This document shows positions 1 to 16,512 of a stretch of 24,897 nucleotides of DNA, piece by piece; position 1 is the first letter of the stretch; every line of letters starts with the position of its first letter. The DNA comes from a virus (taxonomy: Duplodnaviria > Heunggongvirae > Uroviricota > Caudoviricetes): IMG/VR virus record IMGVR_UViG_2547132278_000021, positions 1 to 24,897 of that record; one strand, given 5' to 3'. The translations under genes were made by a program, and so were the position numbers. The notes below the pieces were generated by a model, which searched no databases, was not told where the DNA came from, and saw nothing but the letters and a program-made list of their open reading frames with translations.

Positions 1-447
<447 letters not shown>

Positions 448-448
<1 letters not shown>

Positions 449-2919: not shown

Positions 2920-3524
2920 CAGGACAACCTCGCAATGGTAAACTCATCAACCGGTGGCTGAGGTTCCTGTGATTCATTCTGGCTATGCGAGCCAGCACTA
3001 AGAATCACGCGATTGTACATATTGAGGGCAAACGTACCGAGGTCTGCATTCCCAGTCAGCGCCATGTTAATGGCTGCCGCAAGACGCCAGGCCAGCGCCT
3101 CCATAAAAATGGCATCAAACATGTTTACATCTGAAACTCGAGAGACATACTTGAGCCATGCCTGCGGCTGGTCTGTGTAGATCAACTTTCCTGTTCCGTT
3201 GGTGTCTGCACCCACTTCGTACTGGACGCGCATTGCTGCTGTTGGATTGCGTACACCAGGAAGCATAATTTCAGTAATGCGCAGACAATCGGACGGATAC
3301 TGGTACGCATATTCCCAGTCAGGCGGTGGATTGTTCGTATCTGCAAGCACCACGCGTTTGGTAGCAAAGTTCCAGTCAAAATCAGAAAGCACAGCATCAC
3401 GGCAGGCCTCAAAGTGCAGTGAACATTCCCCCGCTTCCTTGCTGGCTTCCTTCAGGCTGTTAATGCTGCGGCTATTGCCAATATTGGACAGCGCACGATT
3501 GCAGATCTCTACTACAGAGGCCAT
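2919..3524 (-). CDS. Virion protein (201 aa), candidate tail adaptor/tubular protein A-like by position
   Basis: ORF coupled to both neighbours by overlapping start and stop codons; size and position match the gene preceding the large tail protein in podoviruses. Confidence 0.5.
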   Translation of the reverse strand: MASVVEICNRALSNIGNSRSINSLKEASKEAGECSLHFEACRDAVLSDFDWNFATKRVVLADTNNPPPDWEYAYQYPSDCLRITEIMLPGVRNPTAAMRVQYEVGADTNGTGKLIYTDQPQAWLKYVSRVSDVNMFDAIFMEALAWRLAAAINMALTGNADLGTFALNMYNRVILSAGSHSQNESQEPQPPVDEFTIARLS

Positions 3525-3847
3525 TACTCACCACCATTGCCGTACAGCGTTTCAGCCGCTGATTTTTCTACATCCCCGGAAACAGGAGCGATCGCCATAT
3601 CAGTGATCTGCAGATCGGCGCTGCGATTAACACCATCGTCAGTTTCTCTGGCAGACAGGCCTCGAATAACAGCCTTTGCAGTTATCATCACTTCTGTTCC
3701 GACGCCCTGAGGTTGCGCCTTCAGCTTATTCAATGTGTCGTTATTAAGAGTGATGCACAGCCCCCACGGGTATTCATCGCGAGTTCTGGTTTCTCCGCTC
3801 TCATCCTGGTAGCTGTCAGTGCCGGTTTTGAGGTTTACGAGTTCCAT
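3524..3847 (-). CDS. Hypothetical small virion/head-completion protein (107 aa from ATG 3847)
   Basis: ORF in the structural operon; ATG at 3847 preceded by AGGAG with 5-nt spacing. Track start 3853 is a GTG two codons upstream. Confidence 0.5.
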   Translation of the reverse strand: MELVNLKTGTDSYQDESGETRTRDEYPWGLCITLNNDTLNKLKAQPQGVGTEVMITAKAVIRGLSARETDDGVNRSADLQITDMAIAPVSGDVEKSAAETLYGNGGE

Positions 3848-3897
3848 ATACACTCCTGCAATAAAGGGGCCGAAGCCCCTTGTCTGATTCGCGAGGC

Positions 3898-4233
3898 TTA
3901 CACGCCCAGTTCTTTACGCTTATCTGCGATCTTCTCGCGGAGCGTTTCGGCTTTGGCGTTATGGTGTGGCTTCTCGTTAAAGAGCAATTCGTACTCTTCA
4001 CGGAGCTTATCCAGTTCACCATCATCTGACACATCATTGATGATTTTGGTGCTGGTTGCTGCCATAGACACCTTTCCTGCTACCTTTGCTTTTGCCTGTC
4101 TGGCTGCATCGTTAACAGGTTCCAGTGCGCTACCAGGCTCACCTTCGTATTCGATTTCTGCCCCCTCCGGCCACAGAGTGTTATGGATATGAGAGAGGCG
4201 CAGAACGCGGTATCTTGGTTTCTCACCTGACAT
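3898..4233 (-). CDS. Hypothetical small virion protein (111 aa from ATG 4233)
   Basis: ATG at 4233 preceded by AAGGTGA with 5-nt spacing; track start 4242 is a GTG. Lies between capsid and tail genes. Confidence 0.5.
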   Translation of the reverse strand: MSGEKPRYRVLRLSHIHNTLWPEGAEIEYEGEPGSALEPVNDAARQAKAKVAGKVSMAATSTKIINDVSDDGELDKLREEYELLFNEKPHHNAKAETLREKIADKRKELGV

Positions 4234-4243
4234 CAATATCACC

Positions 4244-4681
4244 TTAACCGGTTACTTTTGAGCGGATCGGATACGGCGTATTGGCATCAACATCAAGACT
4301 GATACCCGCAGTGAATTCGCCAGCCGTTAGTGGGCCAGTTGCGACGGAGTAGTTAACACGCAGATATCGCTGAACACCGGCAGGAACCTTTGCAGAAACA
4401 ACTCGTTTACCTGCTGTCAGGGCGGTCTTTGCCAGTGCACCACTATCATAAATAGTGGTCCATGAGCTGTTATTCTCACTCGTCTGCAACTGGATGTTTA
4501 CAGTTGCCTCACCACTTGCCGTGGCGGCTTCGTTAACCAGCGCCCAAAACTCAAGCGGGTAACCCACGCCGATATCACGACGTTTTCCGTCAATTGGACC
4601 GAGATCGATTACGTCAGTAGAAGCCGCGGTATTCGTAACCGCCTGAGCTTCGGAGAACATCAACAGTTTGTCGGTGATCAT
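4244..4681 (-). CDS. Hypothetical virion protein (145 aa), possible capsid decoration/accessory protein
   Basis: ORF immediately downstream of the major capsid gene; Gly/Thr/Ala/Val-rich composition. Function inferred from position only. Confidence 0.45.
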   Translation of the reverse strand: MITDKLLMFSEAQAVTNTAASTDVIDLGPIDGKRRDIGVGYPLEFWALVNEAATASGEATVNIQLQTSENNSSWTTIYDSGALAKTALTAGKRVVSAKVPAGVQRYLRVNYSVATGPLTAGEFTAGISLDVDANTPYPIRSKVTG

Positions 4682-4732
4682 CTTCTTTCTCCATTAGTGG
4701 GTCTGTTACGACCCACAGGTTAATAACAGGCG

Positions 4733-5725
4733 TTACACCACGCGGGCTTCTGTTTCCAGAAGCGCATCAGTTTCACGGATTGGTACACCACGGAATGAAG
4801 TCCACCACTCGCCTTCTGTCTCTTTTACGCTGATCGCCAGAGATGTTTTCTCCAGAGATTGCAGATCAAGAGCCTGTCCTACAGTGCGGTTCATGTAGAA
4901 CACTGGGCGCCCCATGCCACGGTTTGGAATGCGATGCAGTGCTTTAACCATCAACTTCGCAATATTTGCGGCAGAGGAAGGTTCTGAAAGATTGCTGACA
5001 TCGATGTTTGCAATGCGAACGACATAACGCCAGTCACGCAGAGCAAGTCCGTTATCCCATTTGTAATGGGTACGGTAGCCTTCGTACTTGCCGCCATTAG
5101 CATCTTCCAGTGTCACCTGGCCTTTATCTTCCATCTGAATGCCAGCCTTCTGCCCTTTCGGGAAGATGCCATGCACGGTGTTTTCGCCCCACACCACTAA
5201 CCAGATTGAGGTGTTATCTGTACCCGTGCCACCAGCATCAATGATGTTCTGAGCATTACCCGCAGACAGGCTGGAATAGCGGGATGACAGTCCCATAAAC
5301 TGCTGAGGGTTAACGCTGGAATCACCATAAAACAGCGTCTGCGCCATCTGCTGATTCATCGCTTCAATAAATGCGCGGTCTTCAGACAGGCGGAATTCGG
5401 CGGTATTGCCGTTCAGATCAGCCAGTGACTTATCGACTTCAGCATAGGTTTCCAGCATGCCAACGGAATCGGTTACCTGCACTGTGGTTGATTTGCTTGG
5501 CTGTACTCCATAGTTCAGCAAACGCCAGGTAGCTGAAGGTAAACCAGAACGAATGGTGGTTCGGTGTCCGGTAGGAAGGTTCCCTTCGACAAAAGGCATA
5601 TCCTGAAGGATCGGGTTAGTTTGACCGAGAAGCTCGATAATCTTATCGACTTTCCCGTTTGGATCGACGCGCTTACCCCAGTCAGCCAGCGTTAGCGCAG
5701 TTAAGCCTTTAACAGCCATTGTCAT
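4733..5725 (-). CDS. Major capsid protein (330 aa; start may be the second ATG at 5719)
   Basis: ~36-kDa ORF directly after an acidic scaffold-like gene, in the canonical portal-scaffold-capsid order. GAGAGG Shine-Dalgarno upstream is better spaced for ATG 5719. Confidence 0.7.
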   Translation of the reverse strand: MTMAVKGLTALTLADWGKRVDPNGKVDKIIELLGQTNPILQDMPFVEGNLPTGHRTTIRSGLPSATWRLLNYGVQPSKSTTVQVTDSVGMLETYAEVDKSLADLNGNTAEFRLSEDRAFIEAMNQQMAQTLFYGDSSVNPQQFMGLSSRYSSLSAGNAQNIIDAGGTGTDNTSIWLVVWGENTVHGIFPKGQKAGIQMEDKGQVTLEDANGGKYEGYRTHYKWDNGLALRDWRYVVRIANIDVSNLSEPSSAANIAKLMVKALHRIPNRGMGRPVFYMNRTVGQALDLQSLEKTSLAISVKETEGEWWTSFRGVPIRETDALLETEARVV

Positions 5726-5733
5726 TTCCTCTC

Positions 5734-6429
5734 TTATTTGCCATAGAGCACTTCGGCCGCACTACGCTGGCCTTCATTAACACCGGTGACCATGCCATCT
5801 TCAGACATCGCCTTTCCGATTTTCACGAACGTTTTGACCAGATCAGGGTGATTACCCAGCCCGGTGGTGTTCAGATATTCTTTGAGTTCAGGTGTCCCGA
5901 ACTGGTCAAGCGCACGCTGTGCGGCGCTAAGGTTAGAAATCAACTTGTCGCCACCGATTTCTTTGTCAGCTTTTACATCCGCAGCCCACTGCTCGGTTGT
6001 TTTCTGCCAGGCTTCTGCCTGGCGCTGCTGAACACCTGCCAGAATCTTCGGATAAGCATCAACCAGCTTTTGCGCTTGCTCGTTGGTCAGGTTAAGTTCT
6101 CGCGCCACCGGCTCGAATTCCTTCAACGCTTCTGTATCCAGCTCTACGCCTTCGGCAGCCTGAAACTCGTACTTCTCAGGCGCACCCTCTGGTTTATCGC
6201 CGTCCTTTTTTTCATCCTGCTTATCGTTTTCAGGCTTTTTGTCATCAGCAGGTTTATCGCCATCAGCAACAGGTTGTGGCTTATCACCTTCCTGTTGTGA
6301 TGAATCACCAACTGGAGCAGGGTTATCACCTGCAGGCGCTGACGGTTCTGACGCAGCCGGAGCTGCTCCACCATCGACTGGTTGCTCATTGCAAAGACGG
6401 CGATACAGCAAACGCTCAAATAAATTCAT
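5734..6429 (-). CDS. Scaffolding protein (231 aa from ATG 6429)
   Basis: Highly acidic, low-complexity, D/E/K/P-rich N-terminal half with a helical C-terminus, sitting between portal and capsid. Track start 6435 is a GTG overlapping the upstream TGA; ATG 6429 follows AGGAG. Confidence 0.65.
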   Translation of the reverse strand: MNLFERLLYRRLCNEQPVDGGAAPAASEPSAPAGDNPAPVGDSSQQEGDKPQPVADGDKPADDKKPENDKQDEKKDGDKPEGAPEKYEFQAAEGVELDTEALKEFEPVARELNLTNEQAQKLVDAYPKILAGVQQRQAEAWQKTTEQWAADVKADKEIGGDKLISNLSAAQRALDQFGTPELKEYLNTTGLGNHPDLVKTFVKIGKAMSEDGMVTGVNEGQRSAAEVLYGK

Positions 6430-6431
6430 GC

Positions 6432-6728
6432 TCACTCCTGTTCACTGGCCTCTTTGGCCATCTTCAAATACTGTTCAGGGCAATGCGCCATAACGCGCTG
6501 AAACAGTTCCAGCGCCAGATTGCGTTGCCCCTCATTAAATGCCATTGCCATAGCATCCATCGGAGAGATAGCGGAAAACACCCGGCCTTTCTCCAGCACA
6601 GACCAGACAACGCGACGCCCCTGTTCACTGCTCATGACAAAGCGAATGTCATCAATTTCACGCTGTGCCATGTCACGTTGCTTACGGGCGTTTTCTTCTT
6701 TCAGTTGATCGTCCTCGTAATCTGTCAT
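6432..6728 (-). CDS. Hypothetical 98-aa protein between portal and scaffold
   Basis: ATG 6728-6726 overlaps the portal stop (ATGA coupling); charged helical protein. Confidence 0.55.
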   Translation of the reverse strand: MTDYEDDQLKEENARKQRDMAQREIDDIRFVMSSEQGRRVVWSVLEKGRVFSAISPMDAMAMAFNEGQRNLALELFQRVMAHCPEQYLKMAKEASEQE

Positions 6729-8404
6729 TGTGATTGCCCACCCTGACCACTAACTGCATTCGCCATAGCTGACAAAACACTCGGATCCGAAGTTTTAGCT
6801 TCGCTTAGCGTCTTGGCACCCTGTGCCGCCGCCATTCCCATCGCCATCATTTGTTGCTGCTGTTGCTGCTGTGCCCGTTGCTGGCGAGCCTGCTCAACCT
6901 GTTCCTGCGGAACAATGACGGTTGGAGACACTCCGGACATATCAGCGAATGCATCGATCGCCTGATCAACATTGAGTTTGTCGAGAGCTTCTGGTTTCGC
7001 TTGCGCAAGTTGACCAATGAAGTTGACCGTAGACGCCAGACTGGACAGGCCGATAGACTTCTGCGCCTGAGCCATGACGGAAATGTATTCGACCTTCAGG
7101 GGCATACCTTCCATCGCGTCAGGCGGTGGCGGCAGCATGTTTTTACGCACCATCATCGAGAAAGCGCGGTCAATGAGAGGATTAAGACATTCGTCGTTCA
7201 GACGCTCCAGAACCGGCCCCAACATCAGAAGTTTTTCTTCTTTCATTTCGATCACCGCTTCAACAGGCATCGAGCGGGTATTGATGTTCTGCAACATCAT
7301 GAACAGATCGACAAAGTAGGCGCTGTTAATGATTTGACGGGTGTCCTGAATGTCTGCCACCAAATCTGCTGTACTGGGGTTAACCAGATAAGCAGGCCTG
7401 AAACCATCCTGACCAGTAATCTGATCGATATACGTGATGTCGCCAGGAAGAAGGGAGGCACGCTGATTCTTGAGGGAAGTCGGAGCAACCATCGGCGGAT
7501 TGGTGGCTTTATCAATCAACTGCGACTTGCGCTTCTGGAGAAGCTGCAATGCCTTAACAGGTCCAAGCGCCAGCATACCCGGGCATGATGATCCATAAAC
7601 ATCTTCGCCGTTAACTTCCCAGCGCGGAGCCATAATTGGAAACTCATCGAATCCGGACTCGCGCAACAACTTGTCGTTATCGCCACCAACCTCGTAATAA
7701 ACCGATTTGAATGGCTTGTTCTTGCTATCCAGCTTCGATGTATCGCGGTCAATGTTCGGGTAAACCGAATGCATCACTTCAATCCACTTCTCGTAGGTGC
7801 CGCTTTCCCACATGCTTTTTACGGATTCGCTGACGTTATTTAGCCCGAACTCCTGAACAAGCTGACGAACAGTCATAGAGAACTTGCGAAAACAGGTGTC
7901 CACACTGCCACGAGGTGAGTTAGCCAGGTAGTAACTGCCTATCGGGAATGGCATTGTGCGAATGATGTCCTCGTCATCCTCCAGCACTGCCATTGCACCA
8001 GTGCTGTATGTGCCGAGGCTTCCGTATAACTGCGGCAGCGACTGATAGAGATTCGACTTATTGAACATATCGTTCATGCGGTTCTGCACCGCCTCAAGCC
8101 ACAACTTAACAGGGCCATAATCCATCATTTCAGGATCTGGCGTAGCCAGGCGAAACCACGGACGCGCGGGGCTTGTGATGCCTGACATCATGCCGCTGGC
8201 GAGAGTGCGCGCCGCCATAGTCCCGGTCGAATCAATAATGCGTGTATTGCGTCGATCGTTACGGTTGACCTCAGAAGTCAGAAAGCGGGAACCACGTGGG
8301 TTGATGTAATCACTCAACTCGCGCCAGTGCGGCTCGAACGACTGACGCTCGCTTTCAAGTTGTGCGAACTGTTTGTTCAATCGCTCTTTAGTTGTTTCCG
8401 CCAT
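6725..8404 (-). CDS. Portal (head-to-tail connector) protein, podovirus type (559 aa)
   Basis: Size, position after terminase, and a Gln-rich C-terminal tail (QQRAQQQQQQQMMAMGMAAAQGA...) reminiscent of T7-type connectors. Start context CCGGAGTCATTGAA-ATG. Confidence 0.75.
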   Translation of the reverse strand: MAETTKERLNKQFAQLESERQSFEPHWRELSDYINPRGSRFLTSEVNRNDRRNTRIIDSTGTMAARTLASGMMSGITSPARPWFRLATPDPEMMDYGPVKLWLEAVQNRMNDMFNKSNLYQSLPQLYGSLGTYSTGAMAVLEDDEDIIRTMPFPIGSYYLANSPRGSVDTCFRKFSMTVRQLVQEFGLNNVSESVKSMWESGTYEKWIEVMHSVYPNIDRDTSKLDSKNKPFKSVYYEVGGDNDKLLRESGFDEFPIMAPRWEVNGEDVYGSSCPGMLALGPVKALQLLQKRKSQLIDKATNPPMVAPTSLKNQRASLLPGDITYIDQITGQDGFRPAYLVNPSTADLVADIQDTRQIINSAYFVDLFMMLQNINTRSMPVEAVIEMKEEKLLMLGPVLERLNDECLNPLIDRAFSMMVRKNMLPPPPDAMEGMPLKVEYISVMAQAQKSIGLSSLASTVNFIGQLAQAKPEALDKLNVDQAIDAFADMSGVSPTVIVPQEQVEQARQQRAQQQQQQQMMAMGMAAAQGAKTLSEAKTSDPSVLSAMANAVSGQGGQSQ

Positions 8405-8418
8405 TTCAATGACTCCGG

Positions 8419-8625
8419 TTACTGACCAAGCAGCGTTTTACCGCTGGTATTAGCGGTTGATGTGTCGCCCTGAGAACCGGTAAGCAGCGTAGAACTACGA
8501 CCAGCAGCAGCGCGACGGCGACGAGTTTCTTCGTCGCGGGCATCAACAACGGCGGCATCCTGCTCCTGTGGTGCTGCCTGAACTTCTGGTGTTGCAGGCA
8601 CTGATGGTGAGCTACCCATGCACAT
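8419..8625 (-). CDS. Hypothetical 68-aa low-complexity protein upstream of portal
   Basis: ATG at 8625 is preceded by the same initiation block (GGAGTCATTGA-N-ATG) as the portal gene; Ser/Thr/Ala/Gln-rich. The overlapping 79-aa track ORF 8406..8645 starts on TTG and is less likely. Confidence 0.4.
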   Translation of the reverse strand: MCMGSSPSVPATPEVQAAPQEQDAAVVDARDEETRRRRAAAGRSSTLLTGSQGDTSTANTSGKTLLGQ

Positions 8626-8653
8626 ATCAATGACTCCGTACGCAATTAAATTA

Positions 8654-8730
8654 TTACCAATTTAACCACATATGATTTATTTATCGTAGATAGTTGACAT
8701 TTAACGCACAAATTATTACCTTTCAGGTAA
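8654..8730. promoter_or_regulatory. Operator-like site TTACC-TTTCA-GGTAA (8716-8730) with consensus -35 TTGACA (8694-8699) and a degenerate upstream half-site (8654-8668) at the cassette spacing
   Basis: Perfect 15-bp dyad identical in form to the immunity-region operators. Flank AAATTATTACC matches the flank of the pL-like proximal operator. Transcription direction not resolved. Confidence 0.45.
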
Positions 8731-9052
8731 GCAAAGAGTTCATTCCGGTTATTAACCTGACTGGCTTGTCGTTAAATTGAACAGGTGGAGTGAGCTTTTA
8801 TTTTGAGCAGTACGGCGTATGGCACATGCGCCGATAGCGGTCTGGATACGTTTAAGGGGCACCCTCCCTTGCTCGGGCAAACGAACCAGGTAGCCGGAAT
8901 GTGCAAGTCGAGCGGTTTTATTCCGCGCACGGGGATTCACCATCCCGGCGATTTGGTGTGACGCCTCGGAAGAGACGAGGGTACAACGATGAGAGCATTT
9001 ATGGAGCCGCGACAAAGTGTGGCGCCTTAACAGGCTAAGTGCTCTCAGCGTT

Positions 9053-9129
9053 GTGGCATTAGCTCAGTTGGACAGAGCAACCGCCTTCTAAGCGGTTGGT
9101 CGCAGGTTCGAATCCTGCATGCCACGCCA
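9053..9129 (+). tRNA. tRNA-Arg (anticodon TCT, decodes AGA)
   Basis: 77-nt cloverleaf folded by hand: acceptor GTGGCAT/ATGCCAC, D stem GCTC/GAGC, anticodon stem ACCGC/GCGGT with loop CTTCTAA (U33, TCT, A37), T arm GCAGG-TTCGAAT-CCTGC, discriminator G, encoded CCA. Confidence 0.9.
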
Positions 9130-9172
9130 GAATCACGCCTAAGGACCGTGATGCCAGAAGTTCCAGGTGCTT

Positions 9173-9214
9173 GGCGGTGATGGTTTCCCTTGAAGGACTA
9201 TCACCGCCCTTTTT
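9173..9214 (+). terminator. Intrinsic terminator downstream of the tRNA
   Basis: 9-bp stem GGCGGTGAT / ATCACCGCC followed by CTTTTT. Confidence 0.5.
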
Positions 9215-9292
9215 ACAGCAGGACGCCATTGCGATGACTTCATGCTGTAAACCCGTACAGCCACGGAAGGCATAACTCATTGCTTCCAGTTC

Positions 9293-9316
9293 GCCCGGTT
9301 CGCCGGGCATTTTTTT
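9293..9316 (+). terminator. Intrinsic terminator-like hairpin immediately upstream of the Gp49-like gene
   Basis: GCCCGG-TTCG-CCGGGC stem-loop followed by A + TTTTTTT. Confidence 0.5.
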
Positions 9317-9327
9317 AAGGTGAGATT

Positions 9328-9653
9328 ATGAACGACCAGCAAATCGAAAAAGAAATCGTTGAGAAAGGCAAAACCGCTCCGCGAGTTACGCCTCAATATA
9401 TCGAAAGCATCATTCTTGAAGAGCATTTCTTTACTGCTTAGACGGCATTCGTGCTGCCAATATGGGCGTTGGCGATTCATGGACAGCGCATAAATCTACA
9501 GACCTCCTGACTTTCTGCGTATTGGTACTGAAGAATGGCTTCACCGTCACCGGAGAGAGTGCCTGTGCAAGTCCGGAAAATTTTGATGCAGAAATTGGTC
9601 GGAAGATTGCCCGGCAGAATGCTGTAAACAAAATCTGGATGCTTGAAGGTTAA
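9328..9653 (+). pseudogene. Gp49-like small phage protein gene (Phage_gp49_66-type) disrupted by a frameshift
   Basis: ATG 9328 with AGGTGAG Shine-Dalgarno encodes MNDQQIEKEIVEKGKTAPRVTPQYIESIILEEHFFTA then TAG at 9439-9441. The adjacent frame continues from 9441 (DGIRAANMGVGDSW...LKNGFTVTGESACASPENFDAEIGRKIARQNAVNKIWMLEG) to TAA 9651-9653; the two frames join with a 2-nt offset. Confidence 0.5.
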
Positions 9654-9686
9654 TTGCTGAAGCAGAAGTTAAGCGAGCAATAACAC

Positions 9687-9700
9687 CGTGACATGTCACA
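9687..9700. repeat. 14-bp element CGTGACATGTCACA (perfect 12-bp palindrome GTGACATGTCAC), copy 1, downstream of terL
   Basis: Identical 14-mer recurs at 11952-11965. Confidence 0.8.
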
Positions 9701-9703
9701 AAC

Positions 9704-9730
9704 AGCCAGCCGATGAGCTGGCTTTGTTTT
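9704..9730 (+). terminator. Intrinsic terminator (possibly bidirectional) between the Gp49-like gene and the terL 3' end
   Basis: Stem AGCCAGC / GCTGGCT with loop CGATGA, followed by TTGTTTT; A-rich on the other side. Confidence 0.55.
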
Positions 9731-9773
9731 ATCCTCACCAGAGGATATCTCCGTCATTATCCCCGCTAACGGA

Positions 9774-11249
9774 TTAAGCATAGGGATCGTAATCTGTAAT
9801 GGCCTTGCCTTGCTGGTTCTGCTGCCCGGGAATTCGCAGGCGCTTTGACACCGGGAAAGCAAACGTCAGCAGTAGCGCATCGCCTTTACCAGGCGAACGC
9901 CCAAGTCGTTCTTTGATATCTTCCTTCGGTTCGATAACGATTTTACCGTCCACGCGAACTTTGTACTCTGCCGCCGACAGGTCGTCTGCAGTTTCCTGGT
10001 CATCCAGCATGCCGCCTAGCCTCAGCCATGTCTTGCATGAGTTGAACATCTCCCCACGCTTGTTGAGCATCTGCGGGTCAGTAGACGCGCCACCGAACGG
10101 AACAAGTTGCCATGTACGACCCCAGCCGTCACCGATTGACTTCAAACCGGTTCCGTAACCGAAGTCGATGAACACCGCGTCAGCCTGATACTGGTCTTCA
10201 AAGTCAGCGATACGCTTCGCCATAATCAGATCGTCGGTAGTCTTGTTGCCAGTCCACAGCACCTTACTGTGCAGCCCCTGCCGCAGGTATATCACAGCGT
10301 CATCAACGCCTGAGTATGCCGGGTCAACGCCGATTATCACCGGAGCATGTGCAACCTGCGCAGCGGTTACCACCCGTTTCATTGCCTCATCAGTAAGACC
10401 GGTAGGGATAAACTGCAATTCAGATGCATCAGGGAATATGCCGCGCACACGGACCTTCACGAAGTCGCTGTCCTCGCCATGGTCTTCAATCCATTTTTGA
10501 ATCTGCTCTTTGTTCGTTCCTTCGACGGTACGGCTGTCGATCTGCTTCGTAACCCAGCGGTGTTTATATTTGCGGAAGCATTCCCTGAAACGCCCGGAGT
10601 TACGCGTAGGGTTTCCGAACGCTACCCAGATGATTTCCGTGTCTTCGTCCGTCAGCGCACCCTCGGCCACCTCCCAAACTTTATCAGCAATGTTTGACGC
10701 CTCATCGAATACCACGATGATCCGCTTACGCTCGTTGTGCAGGCCGGCGAACGCCTCGGTGTTGTGCTCAGACCACGGGATTGCGTCAGCGCGCCAGCGT
10801 TTATCGTGGCCCGGATCATTGCTGTACATGGCTGTTGCTGGGGTAGAGAACCAGTCTTTCGTGATGGACAGGTTTGCCCACTTAATCACTTCAGGCCATG
10901 TCTTGGTACGCAGCTGATTTTCGGTGTTGGCAGTGACTACTGCTTTGCAGTCTTCGCAGGTTGACATACCCCAGTTCAGGAGCATGGAAATACCCGCACT
11001 TTTCCCTATGCCGTGGCCTGAAGAAACGGCAATCATCAGCGGCTGATGACGGGTTTCTGGGTTCCTGAGGTGCTCACCAACCGTATCGAGCATCCATCTT
11101 TGCCAGTTTCTTGGTCCGGATGCATGCGCCAGCTCTGTACCCTCTTCCCCCCACGGGAACGCATAGAGGGCATAGCCAAGCGGATCGTGAGTGAACCCTG
11201 CTATATCCTCGATCAACTGCTCTTCAGGAGATAACGATGTATCTGTCAC
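9774..11249 (-). CDS. terL: Terminase large subunit (491 aa)
   Basis: N-terminus SPEEQLIEDIAGFTHDPLGYALYAFPWGE..., a Walker-A-like GHGIGKSAG and an acidic VVFDEASNI stretch, then a nuclease-sized C-terminal domain. GTG start at 11249 overlaps the terS stop (GTGA). Confidence 0.85.
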   Translation of the reverse strand: MTDTSLSPEEQLIEDIAGFTHDPLGYALYAFPWGEEGTELAHASGPRNWQRWMLDTVGEHLRNPETRHQPLMIAVSSGHGIGKSAGISMLLNWGMSTCEDCKAVVTANTENQLRTKTWPEVIKWANLSITKDWFSTPATAMYSNDPGHDKRWRADAIPWSEHNTEAFAGLHNERKRIIVVFDEASNIADKVWEVAEGALTDEDTEIIWVAFGNPTRNSGRFRECFRKYKHRWVTKQIDSRTVEGTNKEQIQKWIEDHGEDSDFVKVRVRGIFPDASELQFIPTGLTDEAMKRVVTAAQVAHAPVIIGVDPAYSGVDDAVIYLRQGLHSKVLWTGNKTTDDLIMAKRIADFEDQYQADAVFIDFGYGTGLKSIGDGWGRTWQLVPFGGASTDPQMLNKRGEMFNSCKTWLRLGGMLDDQETADDLSAAEYKVRVDGKIVIEPKEDIKERLGRSPGKGDALLLTFAFPVSKRLRIPGQQNQQGKAITDYDPYA

Positions 11250-11839
11250 TGATTACCATCCTGACGTTCTTTGAGTCGCTTCCTGGCTGCTGCTATGCGA
11301 TCAGCAATTGTCACATTCACATTAACATCCAGACGTTCTTTGAACGCGTTGACATCAACATGCTTACCAATCAGCTCAAGGTTCTTCACCTTGTCAGGCC
11401 ATTTAATTTTTTTGAGGATTGTCTCTATCGAATCCTCGTTCATGTTCATGATGGTCGATGACAGATCAAAGCCACTAAGCGTAGTGCGCCAGATTTTCGG
11501 CCACTCACGGATTGGTTTAAGGCTCCCATCGTCGTTGAGGATGTCGATCACGTCCATCTGGTCGATCTCCACCAGGCGCATGAGAACGTAATCAGCACTG
11601 ACGCGCATTCGTTTGTTGCGCTCCTCCATCAACTCGGCAATCCGTTTTTGAATGCGTTCATCGCGCATCATGACACTGGCTTTAACTGCCGCTGTATTTG
11701 GAGAGAATCCTGCGTTAATCGCTGCCTGAGTCTGGTTTTCAGGCGTTTTGATGTATGACTGGCAATAAGCCTCCTGCATTGCTGTTAGTGGCTTAAATTG
11801 CGTTGATTTGCGTTTATAGGTTTTAGGTTCAGCAGGCAT
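11246..11839 (-). CDS. terS: Terminase small subunit (Terminase_2-like), ~197 aa from the internal ATG
   Basis: Region LTAMQEAYCQSYIKTPENQTQAAINAGFSPNTAAVKASVMMRDERIQKRI has the Terminase_2 HTH pattern. Track start 11920 would place a terminator hairpin inside the coding sequence; ATG 11839 is preceded by GGTGG. Confidence 0.75.
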   Translation of the reverse strand: MPAEPKTYKRKSTQFKPLTAMQEAYCQSYIKTPENQTQAAINAGFSPNTAAVKASVMMRDERIQKRIAELMEERNKRMRVSADYVLMRLVEIDQMDVIDILNDDGSLKPIREWPKIWRTTLSGFDLSSTIMNMNEDSIETILKKIKWPDKVKNLELIGKHVDVNAFKERLDVNVNVTIADRIAAARKRLKERQDGNQ

Positions 11840-11884
11840 CATAACCACCGTGGTAATAGTTACCGTTGTGGTAATAGTACCATG

Positions 11885-11911
11885 CAAAATAAAGCCGCCA
11901 TAGTTGGCGGC
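11885..11911 (-). terminator. Intrinsic terminator hairpin upstream of terS
   Basis: Minus-strand GCCGCCA-ACTA-TGGCGGC followed by TTTATTTTG. Confidence 0.5.
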
Positions 11912-11951
11912 AGTATTCAAAACCCATCAAATTCATCATGCATAATCTACT

Positions 11952-11965
11952 CGTGACATGTCACA
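11952..11965. repeat. 14-bp element CGTGACATGTCACA, copy 2, overlapping the stop of the Cys-rich gene
   Basis: Identical to 9687-9700. Confidence 0.8.
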
Positions 11966-12299
11966 CTATTAATTTCGTTTCATGCCAGCCTTTAGTCACC
12001 CAGCATTGCGAGTCACCATTACACGGGCATGAATTAACTGGAACTCTCTCGCCGCACTTACCGCAACATTTTCTGCTGATCGATTTTATACGCCCGCGCA
12101 CGCGTGCATCATCCTGGCGGATCAGTAACGCTATATACTCACCAAATTCGTAAGGCGCACGCCCGGGGCGACGCGTGGCACAGTTACGCTCCAGCATTTC
12201 AATTTCCTGAGCATCAAGCACAATTTCCAGCTTACGCACACCAGATGCAGCTTGTCTGGCTCTCTGAGCGGCTTTGCGCTCTGCTGCTGATTTAGCCAT
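11961..12299 (-). CDS. Hypothetical Cys-rich protein (112 aa) with basic Arg/Ala-rich N-terminus
   Basis: ATG at 12299. N-terminus [24 protein letters not shown]-terminus [22 protein letters not shown] suggests metal binding. Sits immediately upstream of the palindrome, terminator and terminase genes. Confidence 0.5.
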
Positions 12300-12633
12300 T
12301 CTGATTTTCCTGCATCATGAGAAATACAATCATGGCGGCGCGGAGAGGTCTGGTATCAAATATTGGTCTTACGCCTTTTGCATCAACACACCATTCAGTT
12401 AACTGGTCTAAGATAGAAATCCTGTGTTTCTCAATAATCGGCCATGAGGCGCTAGGATCATTGCAGTAGTCAGGTAAATGGTTTAATGGCTCAAAAGTTG
12501 TATCAGTATTTCCGTAATACCATTTGTTGGTGTTATTCCCTGATGTTTCCGGTTTACATGCCCAAAGGCCTTTAAAAATTATGTCTCCTACCATTCTGTT
12601 AATTTCAAAATCACTTAACTGTGAATAGTCCAT
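12292..12633 (-). CDS. NinX-like (DUF2591-type) phage protein, 113 aa
   Basis: ATG 12633 overlaps the upstream TGA (ATGA) and follows AGGAGGTG. Family assignment from memory of the [13 protein letters not shown]-terminus; tentative. Confidence 0.5.
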
Positions 12634-13547
12634 CACTTCACCTCCTGCGGCGGTTCTGGTAGAGGCATCCAGTGGGTTACACCGCCAATTGGCTCATCGT
12701 CGTCGTACTCCAATGCGGCTATATAGAACCCGTCACGACGAGAATAAGAAATCCCGGACATTACAATGCCATCCGAAACAACAATAATGTCACCCGTTTC
12801 TTTCGGCATTCGCTCACTACAGCTTATCCAGGCATCCAGAGTTACCGGAACTTGTGGAATGGCTGTCTGCTCTCGAACGTCATTAGGCGCTATAGGTTCT
12901 GCTGCCAACTGACTGGCATATTTGTTAATGGTAACGATAAGCTCTTGCTCAGCCTCATCCAGACAATCACCGATACCTCGCCTGTCACCGTCAAAATCAT
13001 CGAAATCGGCACGAATCCTGGCAACCTTCAGGATTGCGGACAACACCTCACTAGGAATTGCCGGATAGTTGGTTGACGTTTCCGCGATTTCCCGAAAATT
13101 ATTGGTTGACGAATTCTTATTTTCCCGAAAGTTTCCGGACTGAAGCATGGCGGCGCGGCAGGCGTTCCAGCCAGCTGTTCGCCCAAGCGCGTAAACTTCA
13201 GATGGCTCAAGATAATCAATGTCATGCCCGTCCTCATCGTCGTTCTCAGGTAATGCAGCAGGTACTACCGGTACTGGCGGAGCGGCGTAGACTTCAATAA
13301 TCCCATTATCAATAGGCCATTCTCCATCCTTGAGATAGTCACTTGTGCCGTCAACTTGCTGTTCAGCAATGTGGAATGCACCAACTGGCTCTGCTGCCAG
13401 CGATGCCAATGCGATTTCCAAAACAGCAATATCCATTTTATATGTGCGGATGATGTCATGGTCGATTGTGCCTGGTATGCACAGTCTCTGTGCTTCAATA
13501 GTCTCCTCTGCGTGAGTTATTAACTGCTCTCTGGTAAAAGTGGTCAT
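12633..13547 (-). CDS. Hypothetical phage protein (304 aa) with C-terminal DUF551-like motif
   Basis: Ends ...[17 protein letters not shown], characteristic of DUF551 C-termini. Strong AAGGAG Shine-Dalgarno 6 nt before ATG 13547. Confidence 0.6.
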
Positions 13548-13557
13548 GTGTTACTCC

Positions 13558-13821
13558 TTAACCCGCAGTGCTTTCAACTGATGAGGGGAACAAAATCTTT
13601 TCATCAAACCCTGCATTCATATCATGAACAGCAACACACCAATCCACCGACGAACGATTATCAAGAGCCTCCATGATTTCATCCATGCGGCGTAGGTCAT
13701 ACAGGTAAATGTTTTTATCGCCAATGGTGTAAAAGCCAATTTTTTTCGGTGATGGACAGCGATCAATGACGTCCTGTAATTCGTTCAACCATGCCTGTTC
13801 TTTTTTTGTCAAAGTTGCCAT
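13558..13821 (-). CDS. Hypothetical protein (87 aa from internal ATG 13821)
   Basis: ATG 13821 preceded by AAGGAAAA; track start 13911 would overlap the upstream gene. Confidence 0.45.
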   Translation of the reverse strand: MATLTKKEQAWLNELQDVIDRCPSPKKIGFYTIGDKNIYLYDLRRMDEIMEALDNRSSVDWCVAVHDMNAGFDEKILFPSSVESTAG

Positions 13822-13822
13822 A

Positions 13823-14041
13823 TCAGTTTTCCTTATACGGATTAATTTTATTGTGCAGTGTGTTGAACGGGGCCCATACAACGTCGTTATACAATTCAAT
13901 AACGGGCTCAATTACTTTTCCGATTATCCAGGCCAGTAATAGCGGGGATATCGGTATCATCAACACGATAAACAGAATGAGAAACAAAAATTCTGTCGCT
14001 CTACTTTTTCGCGGATATTCTTTTCTGAATAATGTAGTCAT
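13823..14041 (-). CDS. Small membrane protein (72 aa, one predicted transmembrane helix)
   Basis: Basic N-terminus then hydrophobic FLFLILFIVLMIPISPLLLAWIIG. Locally AT-rich by eye, and preceded by a 143-bp AT-rich gap containing palindromes. Confidence 0.5.
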   Translation of the reverse strand: MTTLFRKEYPRKSRATEFLFLILFIVLMIPISPLLLAWIIGKVIEPVIELYNDVVWAPFNTLHNKINPYKEN

Positions 14042-14125
14042 TTCTTACCGCCCTTTCGGACGGTCTCCTGATGTTCTGAGGGTGCAGGAATCCCTCCGGT
14101 TAAGGATTAAATTTTATTTACAGAA

Positions 14126-14152
14126 CTGAATTTAATTATTCAGATATACGTA
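14126..14152. promoter_or_regulatory. Palindrome-rich AT-rich intergenic region upstream of the small membrane protein gene
   Basis: CTGAAT-TTAATT-ATTCAG inverted repeat (14126-14143) and ATACGTAT (14145-14152). Confidence 0.3.
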
Positions 14153-14184
14153 TCTGTAACCTTACGAACCTACTCACTGGATGC

Positions 14185-14658
14185 CTATTTCATAAAAATA
14201 ATCCAGTGGGTTTTATCGTTTTTTCCTGTTCGTTGACCGATAACAGGCTTTCTGTCGGTCAGTGCCAATATTTGGCGAACAGGTATTTGCGTTTCATTCC
14301 ATTTAAAAATCAGAACGCCGTATGGCCACAACACACGAAAGGCTTCTTTAAATCCCTGCCGCAAATCATCACGCCAGGTATCTTTATTCATCCGTCCATA
14401 TTTCTTTCTCATCCAGGCGTTATCACCAACACGTTCAAGATGCGGAGGGTCGAATACAACAACCGGAAACGATGCGTCTGCAAATGGTAATGCACGAAAA
14501 TCTGCTATCAGGTCAGGGCTAATTATCAGCCGTCGTCCATCACATAATGTGTGCTCTTCCTTTCTGATATCGCTAAATATCGCCCGGTCGTCATTCTTAT
14601 CGAACCAGAACATGCGACTGCCACAGCACATGTCGAGGATTGTTGCATGTCCAGTCAC
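14185..14658 (-). CDS. Small phage Dam-like N6-adenine DNA methyltransferase (157 aa)
   Basis: SAM-binding motif I-like ILDMCCGS near the N-terminus and catalytic DPPH (DPPY-type) motif in VVVFDPPHL. GTG start at 14658 overlaps the upstream TGA. Confidence 0.6.
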   Translation of the reverse strand: MTGHATILDMCCGSRMFWFDKNDDRAIFSDIRKEEHTLCDGRRLIISPDLIADFRALPFADASFPVVVFDPPHLERVGDNAWMRKKYGRMNKDTWRDDLRQGFKEAFRVLWPYGVLIFKWNETQIPVRQILALTDRKPVIGQRTGKNDKTHWIIFMK

Positions 14659-15188
14659 TGGTTGCCTCCTTTGCGAAGCTGGGAGGCTAACTCATCACAT
14701 ATGTGCGTCAAAGAGCAAAGTTTGATTGATGGATGTTCGCGCATCATCTCCACCCCCTGTGCCCGTACTTCAGCCAGGAAAGCGTCGGTAGCTGGAATGG
14801 GCTTTTGTGGTGATATGGCTATGAGAATTGTCTCAAGGTCTGGATCCGTTTCCGCTGTTGGTACCCTGATATAACCCATCTGCACCCCATTCATGATGAA
14901 CCTGCGACGGTCATCACATATCGCCTTTAGCCCCGCATTCTCCGCAGCCAGCACCGAAAACTTCTCGTGTGCCAACTTAACAGCCGCATCAGCCTGCTTA
15001 ATTGACTCAATCGCTTTCTGCTGGTCTTCGGCCAGCGCATTAGCACGCACCAGTTGCACTTCCAGTTGCGTTGCCAAATCGCTGATCAGCTTTGCCACAC
15101 TGCGCATATCAACGGCACCACATTCTGCTTTCAGTTCCGAAGCCATCTCATGCCCGGCGGAAACTAACCCTTTGATATTACTTTCCAT
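14655..15188 (-). CDS. Hypothetical protein (177 aa), coiled-coil N-terminal half
   Basis: ATG 15188 preceded by GAGGG; no recognisable catalytic motif. Confidence 0.5.
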   Translation of the reverse strand: MESNIKGLVSAGHEMASELKAECGAVDMRSVAKLISDLATQLEVQLVRANALAEDQQKAIESIKQADAAVKLAHEKFSVLAAENAGLKAICDDRRRFIMNGVQMGYIRVPTAETDPDLETILIAISPQKPIPATDAFLAEVRAQGVEMMREHPSIKLCSLTHICDELASQLRKGGNQ

Positions 15189-15249
15189 CTTTACCCTCGC
15201 TTATCCACATAACTTATTGATTACATTGATAACTAAAAAGATCGTCGAT

Positions 15250-15594
15250 TCAGAACTCTTCGATGTTCCAGCCACCACCTGCTTTCTTTGGTTTAACCGT
15301 TACCCCGATGATTCGGAACGGATACTGATCTGCGGCGACTTTGGTTTTCACCCTGGCGTCGTCGGTCCAGAAACCTTTCACTTCGTGTAGTTCCATCTCG
15401 CCGGTGGCGAGCATCACAGCAAAATCGGGCGTATAGAACGTGTTGTCAGCTAACCGCAGCTTGATACCCTCGAATCGATACCAGGCGATTTCCCCTGCAC
15501 GTTTACGCTGCTCAAGGTGCTGGCAATACGCAGATTCTGTTTTGTTCATCTGGCCTGTTTGGAGTCGACCAAGAGCCTGTATCTGTTTTCTCAT
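15250..15594 (-). CDS. DUF1064-like phage protein, possible PD-(D/E)XK-fold nuclease (114 aa)
   Basis: Motif YTPDF...EMELHEVKG is compatible with a D...E.K nuclease core. First gene after the internal promoter-operator cassette. Confidence 0.5.
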   Translation of the reverse strand: MRKQIQALGRLQTGQMNKTESAYCQHLEQRKRAGEIAWYRFEGIKLRLADNTFYTPDFAVMLATGEMELHEVKGFWTDDARVKTKVAADQYPFRIIGVTVKPKKAGGGWNIEEF

Positions 15595-15597
15595 GAT

Positions 15598-15674
15598 TTA
15601 CCTCTAAGGTAATTAAAAACCACATAAGACACGAAATCAATAGATCTAAGAATATTTTGTTACCTATCAGGTAA
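15598..15674 (-). promoter_or_regulatory. Internal promoter-operator cassette: operators TTACC-TCTAA-GGTAA (15598-15612) and GTTACC-TATCA-GGTAAC (15659-15675) flanking -10 TTTAAT (15612-15617) and -35 TTGATT (15635-15640)
   Basis: Two perfect dyads 62 bp apart centre to centre, the same spacing and layout as the pL-like cassette; 17-bp spacer between the hexamers. Confidence 0.6.
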
Positions 15675-15686
15675 CTATTGAGGCGT

Positions 15687-15706
15687 AAAAAAATGCGCTA
15701 TCGCGC
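15687..15706 (-). terminator. Weak terminator-like element after the P-like gene
   Basis: Minus-strand GCGC-GATA-GCGC hairpin followed by TTTTTTT; only a 4-bp stem. Confidence 0.3.
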
Positions 15707-15711
15707 TGGTA

Positions 15712-16512
15712 TTACTTGATAAATCCTGCCGCCTTTCCCCGCCTGTATTCCTCCATCAGCCACTGCGCCGGTGTTATTCCCCCAAGGGTGGCGGCGTTAG
15801 GCATGCACCCGAAACTTCGCCCTGGTGGATGGTAAACGTCTCTCCCTGTGTCCGGAGGTGTACTCATGGGCTCTGGCTTTGCCTGTATGCTGATCACCGG
15901 ATCGGGTATCTGCTGTCCGGAAGCCACCTTTTTCGCCCAATCATCGAGCAGCCTGCGCGCGTGTTTCTCAACCTCAATCTCGCTAAGCTGGCGCTGATAC
16001 ATTGCACGGCGGGTATCACATACGACCCAGTACATAACCGGATGTCGCCACGGGAATCTTTCGGGACCACCAGGATATAAACTTTTTTCCTTGCTGTACC
16101 GGTGAAACTCCGCCATCACATCGTCAATGGTGACGCCAAGAACCATCTTGCTGTCTTTGCACCACTTGATAAATTGCCCTGGCGACGGCCAGAACGGAGA
16201 TTCACTGGCGCGGGCGTGGCGCATACCAGCAGAAACCTGTTCACGGGTTCGGATCCCCCCTTCGGCAAACGCAGCAATCCACTGCTGTTTTGCAGCAACT
16301 TCCTGCTCTGGCGTCTTCAGGTTGGTTACCACTGCCGCCGGAAACAGTTGTTTCAACTGTTTGAAAAGGGCATCAACAAGCCTCTCTGCTGACATGTTCA
16401 CCACATTGTCATTGTTGACGTACTGATGCTCATAACCTGACATGCGAGAAAGGGCTTCTCCGTCACGGTTTTGTATCGCGGTAAAAACGTTGTTCACAAG
16501 AAATCCTCCCAC
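15712..16512 (-). CDS. Lambda P-like replication protein (helicase loader), 266 aa; start codon uncertain
   Basis: QWIAAFAEGGIRTREQVSAGMRHARASESPFWPSPGQFIKWCK parallels the lambda P core (QWVLAFRENGITTMEQVNAGMRVARRQNRPFLPSPGQFVAWCR, recalled from memory). Track start is a GTG overlapping the O-like gene 3' end. Confidence 0.8.
   Translation of the reverse strand: MGGFLVNNVFTAIQNRDGEALSRMSGYEHQYVNNDNVVNMSAERLVDALFKQLKQLFPAAVVTNLKTPEQEVAAKQQWIAAFAEGGIRTREQVSAGMRHARASESPFWPSPGQFIKWCKDSKMVLGVTIDDVMAEFHRYSKEKSLYPGGPERFPWRHPVMYWVVCDTRRAMYQRQLSEIEVEKHARRLLDDWAKKVASGQQIPDPVISIQAKPEPMSTPPDTGRDVYHPPGRSFGCMPNAATLGGITPAQWLMEEYRRGKAAGFIK

What the first reader, a model, noticed from the sequence alone, without database searches (positions are those of the whole stretch)
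9328..9653. Gp49-like gene split by a frameshift
The N-terminal segment (to FFTA) ends at a TAG, and the conserved C-terminal segment (GFTVTGESACASPENFDAEIGRKIARQ...) continues in the adjacent frame from 9441. A single-base indel near 9439-9441 would restore a ~108-aa protein. This is either gene decay in a defective prophage or a sequencing error.
Basis: partly seen in the sequence, partly recalled or inferred. Interest (0 to 1): 0.4.

Follow-up and report, generated by a model that had tools for sequence, protein, structure and literature searches.

The report
Broken anti-CBASS (Acb4) prophage gene
A small prophage gene that normally makes a "sponge" protein soaking up the alarm molecules of a bacterial anti-phage defence has been knocked out twice (a one-base deletion and a premature stop) in this E. 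coli strain, which is ordinary gene decay and not a sequencing mistake.

Summary
ORF 9328-9441 (37 aa) stops at TAG 9439-9441, and the rest of the gene continues in the -1 frame. Alignment with intact homologs (118 aa, 357 nt) shows two lesions. One is a 1-bp deletion of the T of codon 38 (TAT) between 9440 and 9441. The ancestral stop is at 9681-9683.

The gene belongs to Pfam PF13876 (N4 Gp49/Sf6 gp66). This family was characterised in 2024 as Acb4, a tetrameric sponge that sequesters CBASS cyclic dinucleotides.

The window comes from ETEC strain TW10722 (AELB01000019.1) and covers an epsilon15/phiV10-like prophage. A second assembly, made from a different read set (SRR5185397), is 100% identical over 16.7 kb and carries both lesions, so sequencing error is very unlikely. 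Neither lesion occurs in 5,426 complete E. coli genomes.

About 33 other prophage genes in the window are intact. The exception is a virion gene interrupted by IS100.

Verdict: a real, strain-private pseudogene of a known anti-defence gene. Interest is low.

The parts
9328..9683 (+). Whole acb4-type (Gp49 family, PF13876) pseudogene: ancestral ATG 9328 to ancestral stop TAA 9681-9683 (356 nt, against 357 nt in intact alleles)
9328..9441 (+). Residual 5' ORF: 37 codons plus the TAG created by the frameshift. Preceded by RBS AAGGTGAG (9317-9324), so probably still translated into a 37-aa peptide
   Evidence: 100% identical to residues 1-37 of the intact protein
9440..9441 (+). Lesion 1: 1-bp deletion. 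The T of codon 38 (TAT, Tyr) is missing between these two bases; the context TTA[T]GAC is not a homopolymer. It lies at the 5' edge of the hypervariable central segment
   Evidence: A1, A3. Private to the window among 12 relatives. 0 of 64 complete E. coli genomes with this allele type carry it. 0 hits for the deleted 35-mer against 9 hits for the intact 36-mer in metagenome contigs
9462..9653 (+). Residual 3' ORF (63 aa from internal ATG = Met46 of the intact protein) in the -1 frame. It holds the beta-sheet core and the ENFDAEIGR motif. There is no Shine-Dalgarno sequence upstream (gctgccaatATG)
   Evidence: Pfam PF13876 E=7e-27; no gene with this product is on record in public gene calls
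9651..9653 (+). Lesion 2: nonsense codon TAA replacing TAC (Tyr109), C>A at 9653. It removes YLLKQKLSEQ
   Evidence: A1. Private to the window among 11 relatives. 0 of 174 complete E. coli genomes carry it. The removed residues are invariant in 8 homologs from E. coli, Shigella, Salmonella and Pseudomonas phages (A2). Tyr109 aligns with Tyr85 of SPO1 Acb4 (A4)
9293..9316 (+). Terminator-like hairpin GCCCGGTTCGCCGGGC plus T7, directly upstream of the RBS
   Evidence: a rho-independent terminator is annotated at the same place in phage epsilon15
9704..9730 (+). Terminator-like hairpin downstream of the gene, between it and the convergent terL
   Evidence: annotated as a terminator in phiV10
9053..9129 (+). 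tRNA-Arg (anticodon TCT) on the same strand upstream, followed by a terminator-like hairpin at 9173-9208. Part of the same small rightward cassette, embedded antisense in the late operon
   Evidence: ARAGORN, Rfam 73.3 bits, annotated in relatives, hairpin

Best explanation
Window 9328-9683 is a genuine, strain-private pseudogene of an acb4-type anti-CBASS sponge gene (Pfam PF13876, 'Gp49 family'). It is carried by an epsilon15/phiV10-like (Uetakevirus-type) prophage of ETEC strain TW10722. The intact 118-aa protein is expected, by family membership and not tested here, to form a homotetramer that sequesters the cyclic dinucleotide signals (3'3'-cGAMP and relatives) made by the host CBASS defence, which lets the phage escape abortive infection. 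In this strain a 1-bp deletion in codon 38 shifts the frame, so translation from the good RBS ends after 37 residues. The remaining 63-codon ORF has no Shine-Dalgarno sequence. It lacks the conserved N-terminal helix, and a second mutation (Tyr109>stop) removes ten invariant C-terminal residues that correspond to the last helix of SPO1 Acb4, which helps form the ligand pocket. The prophage has therefore lost this anti-defence function. Shown here: the two lesions, their privacy to this strain, their reproducibility in a second assembly, and family membership. Inferred: loss of sponge function, and the order and cause (drift or selection) of the two hits.
For: Lesions. The Acb4 paper equates SPO1 Acb4 with PF13876, and its Table S3 lists A0A0C5F232, identical to the repaired window protein, together with the epsilon15, phiV10, Sf6 and N4 homologs. 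Real, not error: L024 (Logan SRR5185397) is 100% identical over 16,657 bp with no gaps; the 37-aa product is on 3 NCBI contigs, including a 5.25-Mb one; a second TW10722 assembly, GCF_018884385.1, exists; the deletion context is not a homopolymer. Private: 0/64 and 0/174 complete E. coli genomes; 0 against 9 metagenome contigs; within 8400-9800 the only window-private changes inside the gene are the two disabling ones. Functional importance of the lost parts: the N-terminal residues and the C-terminal YLLKQKLSE are invariant across 8 homologs; Tyr109 aligns with SPO1 Tyr85, and the SPO1 a4-a5 helices with K81/L89 contact the ligand. Source strain.
Against: No read-level data could be inspected. 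I could not confirm that SRR5185397 is a different library from the one behind the 2010 draft, nor see the 5.25-Mb contig itself. Cyclic-dinucleotide binding has not been shown for this enterobacterial clade specifically, as far as I could read: the eight tested homologs are not named in the text. Several SPO1 ligand-contact residues are not conserved here (E49>T73, Y57>A81, T70>I94, K81>M105). A low level of translation of the 63-aa fragment cannot be excluded.
Confidence: 0.9

Rival explanations
1. Sequencing or assembly error in a 2010 draft genome; the real gene is intact.
For: The window comes from an early draft assembly (AELB01000019.1). Single-base indels are the classic error of early pyrosequencing (my own knowledge; the platform was not verified).
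Against: A separate read-based assembly (Logan, SRR5185397) reproduces both lesions with 100% identity over 16.7 kb. The same 37-aa product is called on 3 NCBI contigs, including a 5.25-Mb chromosome. The missing T is flanked by A and G, so it is not a homopolymer. A second, independent lesion is a substitution, not an indel. No other gene among ~33 in 24.9 kb shows a frameshift or stop, which argues against a generally error-prone consensus.
Confidence: 0.04
2. The two ORFs are joined by programmed -1 ribosomal frameshifting (or another recoding event), so a functional protein is still made.
For: The downstream frame is -1 relative to the upstream one, which is the direction of most programmed shifts.
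Against: There is no X XXY YYZ slippery heptamer before the TAG (CAT TTC TTT ACT GCT TAG). A slip upstream would replace the invariant F35-T36-A37. Every homolog, including the near-identical allele in 64 complete genomes, is a single uninterrupted ORF. Even after a shift, the product would end at the private TAA 9651-9653.
Confidence: 0.01
3. The 63-aa ORF from ATG 9462 is a naturally short, still functional mini-sponge.
For: It retains the beta-sheet core and the conserved ENFDAEIGR motif, and by itself passes the Pfam threshold.
Against: There is no Shine-Dalgarno sequence before ATG 9462. No homolog starts there, and even the shortest family members (90-100 aa) keep the N-terminal helix. 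It also lacks the invariant C-terminal decapeptide. Public gene callers did not call it.
Confidence: 0.03
4. The loss was selected, not neutral. Either a lysogen benefits from silencing a prophage gene that would disarm its own CBASS, or the protein or fragment is costly. This is a sub-hypothesis of the best explanation, not an alternative to the gene being broken.
For: Both of the only two window-private changes in the gene are disabling, with no private silent or missense change. Both point lesions seen in the window's ~22 kb of coding sequence fall in this 357-bp gene. An independent 1-bp deletion only 4 bp away exists in another isolate's assembly (SRR13802942, L032).
Against: The numbers are tiny: two events here and one elsewhere. 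0 of 64 and 0 of 174 complete genomes show these lesions, so loss is rare. The gene sits behind two terminator-like hairpins and may be silent in the lysogen. A second hit after a frameshift has no obvious selective value. Whether TW10722 has a CBASS operon is unknown. The L032 deletion is in a GG pair and rests on a single assembly.
Confidence: 0.12

Closest known systems
Acb4 (anti-CBASS 4) of Bacillus phage SPO1, PDB 9E4W; family PF13876 (bioRxiv 10.1101/2024.12.30.630793)
   Same: Same Pfam family. The beta-core and the ENF-x-x-EIGR loop align (repaired-protein residues 61-103 with SPO1 37-79). F48/F62/I66/G67/R68 of SPO1 are conserved as F72/F86/I90/G91/R92. The repaired protein is itself listed among the paper's 1,331 homologs.
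   Different: Only ~27% identical overall. The enterobacterial clade has an extra ~20-residue N-terminal extension and a hypervariable insertion (residues 38-60). Several ligand contacts differ. The copy in the window is a pseudogene with two lesions.
Sf6 gene 66 protein / N4 gp49 (the proteins that gave PF13876 its name)
   Same: Sf6 gp66 is 80% identical to the repaired protein and has an identical C-terminal half. It is likewise a small accessory gene outside the core modules.
   Different: Sf6 is a P22-like Lederbergvirus and the gene sits in a different genome context. Those copies are intact.
phiV10p03 and the epsilon15 homolog (ABK13674.1) in Uetakevirus phages
   Same: Same locus: the gene lies between the portal-side genes and terL, on the opposite strand, preceded by a terminator hairpin and followed by a terminator. 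72-73% protein identity.
   Different: The phage copies are intact (123 and 121 aa), and their central segment is unalignable with the window's. The E. coli prophage lineage additionally carries tRNA-Arg(UCU) upstream.
WP_000999689.1 / A0A0C5F232, 'Gp49 family protein' of E. coli prophages
   Same: The direct intact counterpart. The window differs inside the gene only by the 1-bp deletion, one synonymous C/T at 9644 and the nonsense C>A.
   Different: That protein is a single 118-aa ORF seen on at least 1000 contigs. The window's allele is broken and is on record only in TW10722 assemblies.

Membership tests
Acb4 / Pfam PF13876 (Phage_gp49_66) | Significant match to the PF13876 profile above the gathering score | tested here: met
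The 63-aa fragment alone scores 94.2 bits. Cut-off is 27.
Acb4 / Pfam PF13876 (Phage_gp49_66) | Sequence relationship to the structurally and biochemically characterised founder (SPO1 Acb4, 9E4W) | tested here: met
   phmmer E=0.006; profile of 8 homologs E=6.1e-5, and it is the top PDB hit. The intact counterpart is listed in the paper's Table S3.
Acb4 / Pfam PF13876 (Phage_gp49_66) | Conservation of the ligand-contact residues defined in SPO1 Acb4 (K36, F48, E49, V56, Y57, F62, N63, I66, T70, K81, L89) | tested here: inconclusive
   F48, F62 and I66 (plus G67, R68) are conserved. E49>T, V56>C, Y57>A, N63>D (a backbone contact), T70>I and K81>M are not. The paper reports differing specificity in homologs from Gram-negative hosts.
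Acb4 / Pfam PF13876 (Phage_gp49_66) | Homotetramer that binds 3'3'-cGAMP and inhibits CBASS | not testable with these tools
   Needs biochemistry.
Acb4 / Pfam PF13876 (Phage_gp49_66) | One uninterrupted ORF encoding the whole domain (i.e. a functional member) | tested here: not met
   Frameshift at codon 38 and a stop at codon 109. It is therefore filed as a pseudogene of the family.
Gp49/HigB-type toxin (Pfam PF05973, the other 'Gp49-like' family) | Match to the PF05973 profile | tested here: not met
   A Pfam scan at E<=1 returned PF13876 only. The shared 'Gp49' name is a coincidence of phage gene numbering (my own knowledge).
Programmed -1 ribosomal frameshift | Slippery heptamer at the frame junction, and conservation of the two-frame layout in homologs | tested here: not met
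   No X XXY YYZ motif before TAG 9439. All homologs are single-frame.
epsilon15/phiV10-like (Uetakevirus-type) prophage | Synteny and sequence similarity of the terS-terL / gp49 / portal / capsid module with phiV10 and epsilon15 | tested here: met
   83% DNA identity to phiV10 and ~70% to epsilon15 across the locus, with the same gene order and strand layout. Whole-window synteny with E. coli prophages inserted next to guaA.

The most novel reading that the evidence does not exclude
Prophage acb4 may be recurrently and adaptively inactivated in lysogens. One possible reason is that a resident anti-CBASS sponge weakens the host's own CBASS. Another is that the 5' edge of the hypervariable loop (codons 38-40) is a mutational hot spot. 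The evidence consists of two independent 1-bp deletions 4 bp apart in unrelated isolates, plus a second disabling hit in this strain with no accompanying silent changes.
Probability: 0.1. Interest if true: 0.5.

Novelty: already known. Interest (0 to 1): 0.2.

Why it matters
It matters little beyond annotation. The locus should be annotated as a pseudogene of an Acb4-family anti-CBASS sponge, with a frameshift and an internal stop, not as two hypothetical ORFs or as an assembly error. TW10722 is used as a human challenge strain, so it is of minor use to know that this prophage has lost an anti-defence gene and carries an IS100 in a virion gene, and is therefore probably non-inducible as an infectious phage. 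The wider point is that this cassette is a swap-in/swap-out accessory slot holding either acb4 variants or an uncharacterised phrog_4846 protein, which may be another candidate anti-defence gene.

Tried and rejected
1. The exact-product look-up for the 63-aa ORF found nothing on record.

2. The look-up for the 37-aa product returned three metagenome/Logan contigs (L006/L009, L007, L008). At first sight these look like further carriers. In fact the contigs simply end 0-2 bases after codon 37, so they are partial genes and no evidence for the allele. I rejected them as support.

3. A repeat look-up with larger flanks, meant to reveal the 5.25-Mb NCBI contig, did not return it.

4. Exact-pattern scans for the deletion allele in genome contigs and metagenome contigs gave 0 hits. 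The intact-allele control gave 9 metagenome hits but 0 in genome contigs, so the genome-contig result is uninformative: this prophage allele is not present among the species representatives.

5. The sigma-70 promoter scan of 8600-9800 found no site, so the promoter of the tRNA/acb4 cassette remains unidentified.

6. An Rfam scan of 8500-9900 found only the tRNA.

7. I considered a chimeric consensus of two acb4 paralogs and rejected it. The sequence on both sides of the gap is the same allele, and two different assemblies agree.

8. I did not run the search for homologous proteins or structure prediction. Pfam, the PDB sequence hit and the published homolog table already settle family membership, and the cost was not justified.

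Full report
**Observation.** Reading the window and translating the three forward frames confirms the finding. An ORF starts at ATG 9328, preceded by a good ribosome-binding site (AAGGTGAG, 9317-9324), and ends after 37 codons at TAG 9439-9441. The frame one base back carries ...LDGIRAANMGVGDSWTAHKSTDLLTFCVLVLKNGFTVTGESACASPENFDAEIGRKIARQNAVNKIWMLEG and ends at TAA 9651-9653. The mechanical ORF list gives the same two pieces, 9328-9441 and 9462-9653. The downstream piece alone matches Pfam PF13876 (N4 Gp49/Sf6 gene 66 family) at E=7e-27. A one-base repair gives 104.9 bits against a cut-off of 27. The resemblance is not chance.

**What the intact gene looks like.** Megablast against 5,426 complete E. 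coli genomes found the locus in 180 genomes at full length, always annotated 'Gp49 family protein'. The annotated homolog WP_000999689.1 is 357 nt/118 aa. The DNA alignment (A1; A3) shows two differences that matter.

- Intact GCT TAT GAC is GCT TA- GAC in the window. One T of codon 38 is missing between 9440 and 9441, which creates the TAG.
- Intact GGT TAC TTG is GGT TAA TTG. This is a C>A change at 9653 that turns Tyr109 into a stop and removes YLLKQKLSEQ.

The ancestral stop is at 9681-9683.

**Real mutation or error?** The window is NCBI GCA_000166555.2 contig AELB01000019.1, with record coordinate = window + 1. AELB00000000 is ETEC strain TW10722 from Guinea-Bissau. Four observations argue against error.

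- A contig assembled by the Logan project from run SRR5185397 (L024, 16,657 bp) is 100.000% identical to window 279-16935 with no gap, so it contains both lesions.
- The exact 37-aa product is on record on three NCBI contigs, the longest being 5,254,433 bp. A second TW10722 assembly, GCF_018884385.1, is cited in the literature. That this assembly is the 5.25-Mb contig is my inference.
- The missing T sits between A and G, not in a homopolymer, and the second lesion is a substitution.
- None of the other ~33 genes in the window shows a frameshift or internal stop when compared with a 97%-identical prophage.

Three metagenome or Logan contigs returned by the 37-aa look-up are not carriers. They merely end 0-2 bases after codon 37.

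**How private is it?** A 60-base probe across the deletion matched 64 complete genomes, all with the extra base (98.4%). A 61-base probe across the nonsense codon matched 174 genomes, none identical. The deleted 35-mer has 0 exact hits in the metagenome collection, while the intact 36-mer has 9. I aligned window 8400-9800 with 14 relatives. Within the gene, the only window-private changes are the two disabling ones.

**What the gene is.** A phmmer search of the repaired protein against PDB sequences gave one hit, 9E4W 'anti-CBASS 4 (Acb4)', at E=0.006. A profile of eight homologs raised this to 6.1e-5. The Acb4 paper (bioRxiv 10.1101/2024.12.30.630793) reports the following:

- SPO1 Acb4 is a 96-aa protein forming a pinwheel tetramer that sequesters four 3'3'-cGAMP molecules.
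- It belongs to PF13876, which has 1,331 homologs.
- All eight homologs tested bind 3'3'-cGAMP, and those from phages of Gram-negative hosts also bind 3'3'-cAA.

The paper's Table S3 lists A0A0C5F232 (E. coli), whose sequence is identical to the repaired window protein, together with the epsilon15, phiV10, Sf6 and N4 proteins. A second paper also equates Acb4 with PF13876. PHROGs gives only 'unknown function'. The name 'Gp49' is shared with an unrelated HigB-type toxin family, and the Pfam scan shows that family is not involved.

**Consequences of the lesions.** Eight homologs from E. coli prophages, phiV10, Sf6, epsilon15 and a Pseudomonas phage share invariant N-terminal positions (I6, E9, K13, G14, A17-R19, T21, P22... 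F35, T36, A37) and an invariant C-terminus LEGYLLKQKLSE. The frameshift separates the N-terminal helix from the beta core. The next ATG (9462, Met46) has no Shine-Dalgarno sequence. With bridging family members, Tyr109 aligns with Tyr85 of SPO1 Acb4. The nonsense codon therefore removes the counterpart of the last helix. In SPO1, that helix together with a4 of the opposite dimer forms the ligand pocket, and it includes L89. Loss of function is inferred from this evidence and has not been shown directly.

Programmed -1 frameshifting is rejected for three reasons. There is no slippery heptamer. All homologs are single-frame. The private TAA would still truncate the product.

**Context.** The window is an epsilon15/phiV10-like prophage. 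In relatives it sits next to guaA, and the integrase lies at the window's right end. The acb4 gene and a tRNA-Arg(UCU) (9053-9129) form a small plus-strand cassette lying antisense inside the minus-strand late operon, between the 68-aa gene/portal and terL. Three plus-strand terminator-like hairpins lie at 9173-9208, 9293-9308 (immediately before the RBS, and annotated at the same place in epsilon15) and 9704-9723. No sigma-70-like promoter was detected.

All other genes are full length, with one exception: the 154-aa virion gene to the left of the tail gene. It is cut after codon 50 by an IS100kyp (IS21-family) element that occupies window 1-~300. The prophage therefore has at least two independent kinds of damage but is otherwise well preserved, which points to recent decay.

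**Drift or selection?** Three observations are suggestive. Both private changes in the gene are disabling. Both point lesions seen in ~22 kb of coding sequence fall in one 357-bp gene. Another isolate's assembly (SRR13802942, L032) carries a different 1-bp deletion only 4 bp downstream in an otherwise intact allele. However, the counts are tiny, the lesions are absent from thousands of genomes, and a second hit after a frameshift has no obvious benefit. I give adaptive loss about 0.1.

**Verdict.** This is a correctly observed, real pseudogene of a known anti-defence gene family in a slightly decayed prophage. It is already known in kind and of low interest (0.2). The useful outputs are the corrected anatomy (two lesions, 118 aa), the functional identity (Acb4-type sponge) and the exclusion of sequencing error.

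Noticed in passing
window 1-~300 and 299-448 (- strand gene remnant): The window starts inside an IS100kyp (IS21-family) element. The istB 3' end scores 115 bits on PF01695 and is 100% identical to many copies in E. coli genomes. The element interrupts the 154-aa virion gene next to the tail gene, of which only codons 1-50 remain adjacent. The Logan contig L024 also starts at 279, which is consistent with a repeat boundary.
   Followed up: partly
window ~9332-9687; loci L019-L028 (region next to terL): In prophages with an identical TerL protein, the slot holds different cargo between the same flanks. It contains either Acb4 variants of 118-125 aa (L019, L022, L025), a 140-aa phrog_4846 protein of unknown function (L023, L026), or a 61-aa version of that protein's C-terminus (L020, L021, L027, L028). 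The phrog_4846 protein has no Pfam match and might be another anti-defence candidate.
   Followed up: partly
window 9439-9507 (codons 38-60 of the gene): The central segment of the gene is hypervariable and indel-rich. DNA identity to other alleles is 27-30% there, against 64-81% for the N-terminal segment and 79-95% for the C-terminal segment. It is an insertion relative to short family members. The frameshift lies exactly at its 5' edge.
   Followed up: partly
L006/L009, L007, L008 (contig ends, equivalent to window 9438-9440): Three independent metagenome or SRA assemblies break 0-2 bases after codon 37. The probable cause is an assembly-graph branch where co-occurring alleles diverge at the start of the hypervariable segment. 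This produces spurious '37-aa' partial gene calls identical to the pseudogene product.
   Followed up: partly
L032:1501-1856 (Logan SRR13802942 contig 77): An independent frameshift allele of the same gene. One G of GAC GGC (codons 39-40) is deleted, 4 bp downstream of the window's deletion. The rest of the gene is the intact allele (C at the positions equivalent to 9644 and 9653). It rests on a single assembly and has not been verified.
   Followed up: partly
window 9293-9316: A strong terminator-like hairpin (6 G-C pairs plus T7) sits directly in front of the gene's RBS, and a terminator is annotated at the same place in phage epsilon15. With a second hairpin after the tRNA (9173-9208), this suggests that expression of the gene depends on read-through or antitermination. 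No promoter was found.
   Followed up: no
window 9059-9310 (- strand): An 83-aa ORF antisense to tRNA-Arg is called by automatic gene finders in several assemblies and is annotated as PhiV10p04 in phiV10. RefSeq annotations of E. coli relatives omit it. It is probably spurious.
   Followed up: no
window 9774-11249 (terL) and 9750-9769: The window's TerL is only 92% identical to that of the otherwise closest prophage (JML285), while the flanking TerS and portal are 100% and 99.8% identical. It is identical to TerL in many other prophages. This points to mosaic exchange with a boundary just downstream of the acb4 terminator.
   Followed up: no
window 12292-15188: The early-region genes differ from those of JML285. 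They include a NinX-like gene, a 304-aa DUF551 protein, and 157- and 177-aa ORFs. Matches to JML285 here are only 43-56% identical, or there is no match at all. This is typical accessory-gene mosaicism. In JML285 some of these genes are annotated as pseudogenes.
   Followed up: no
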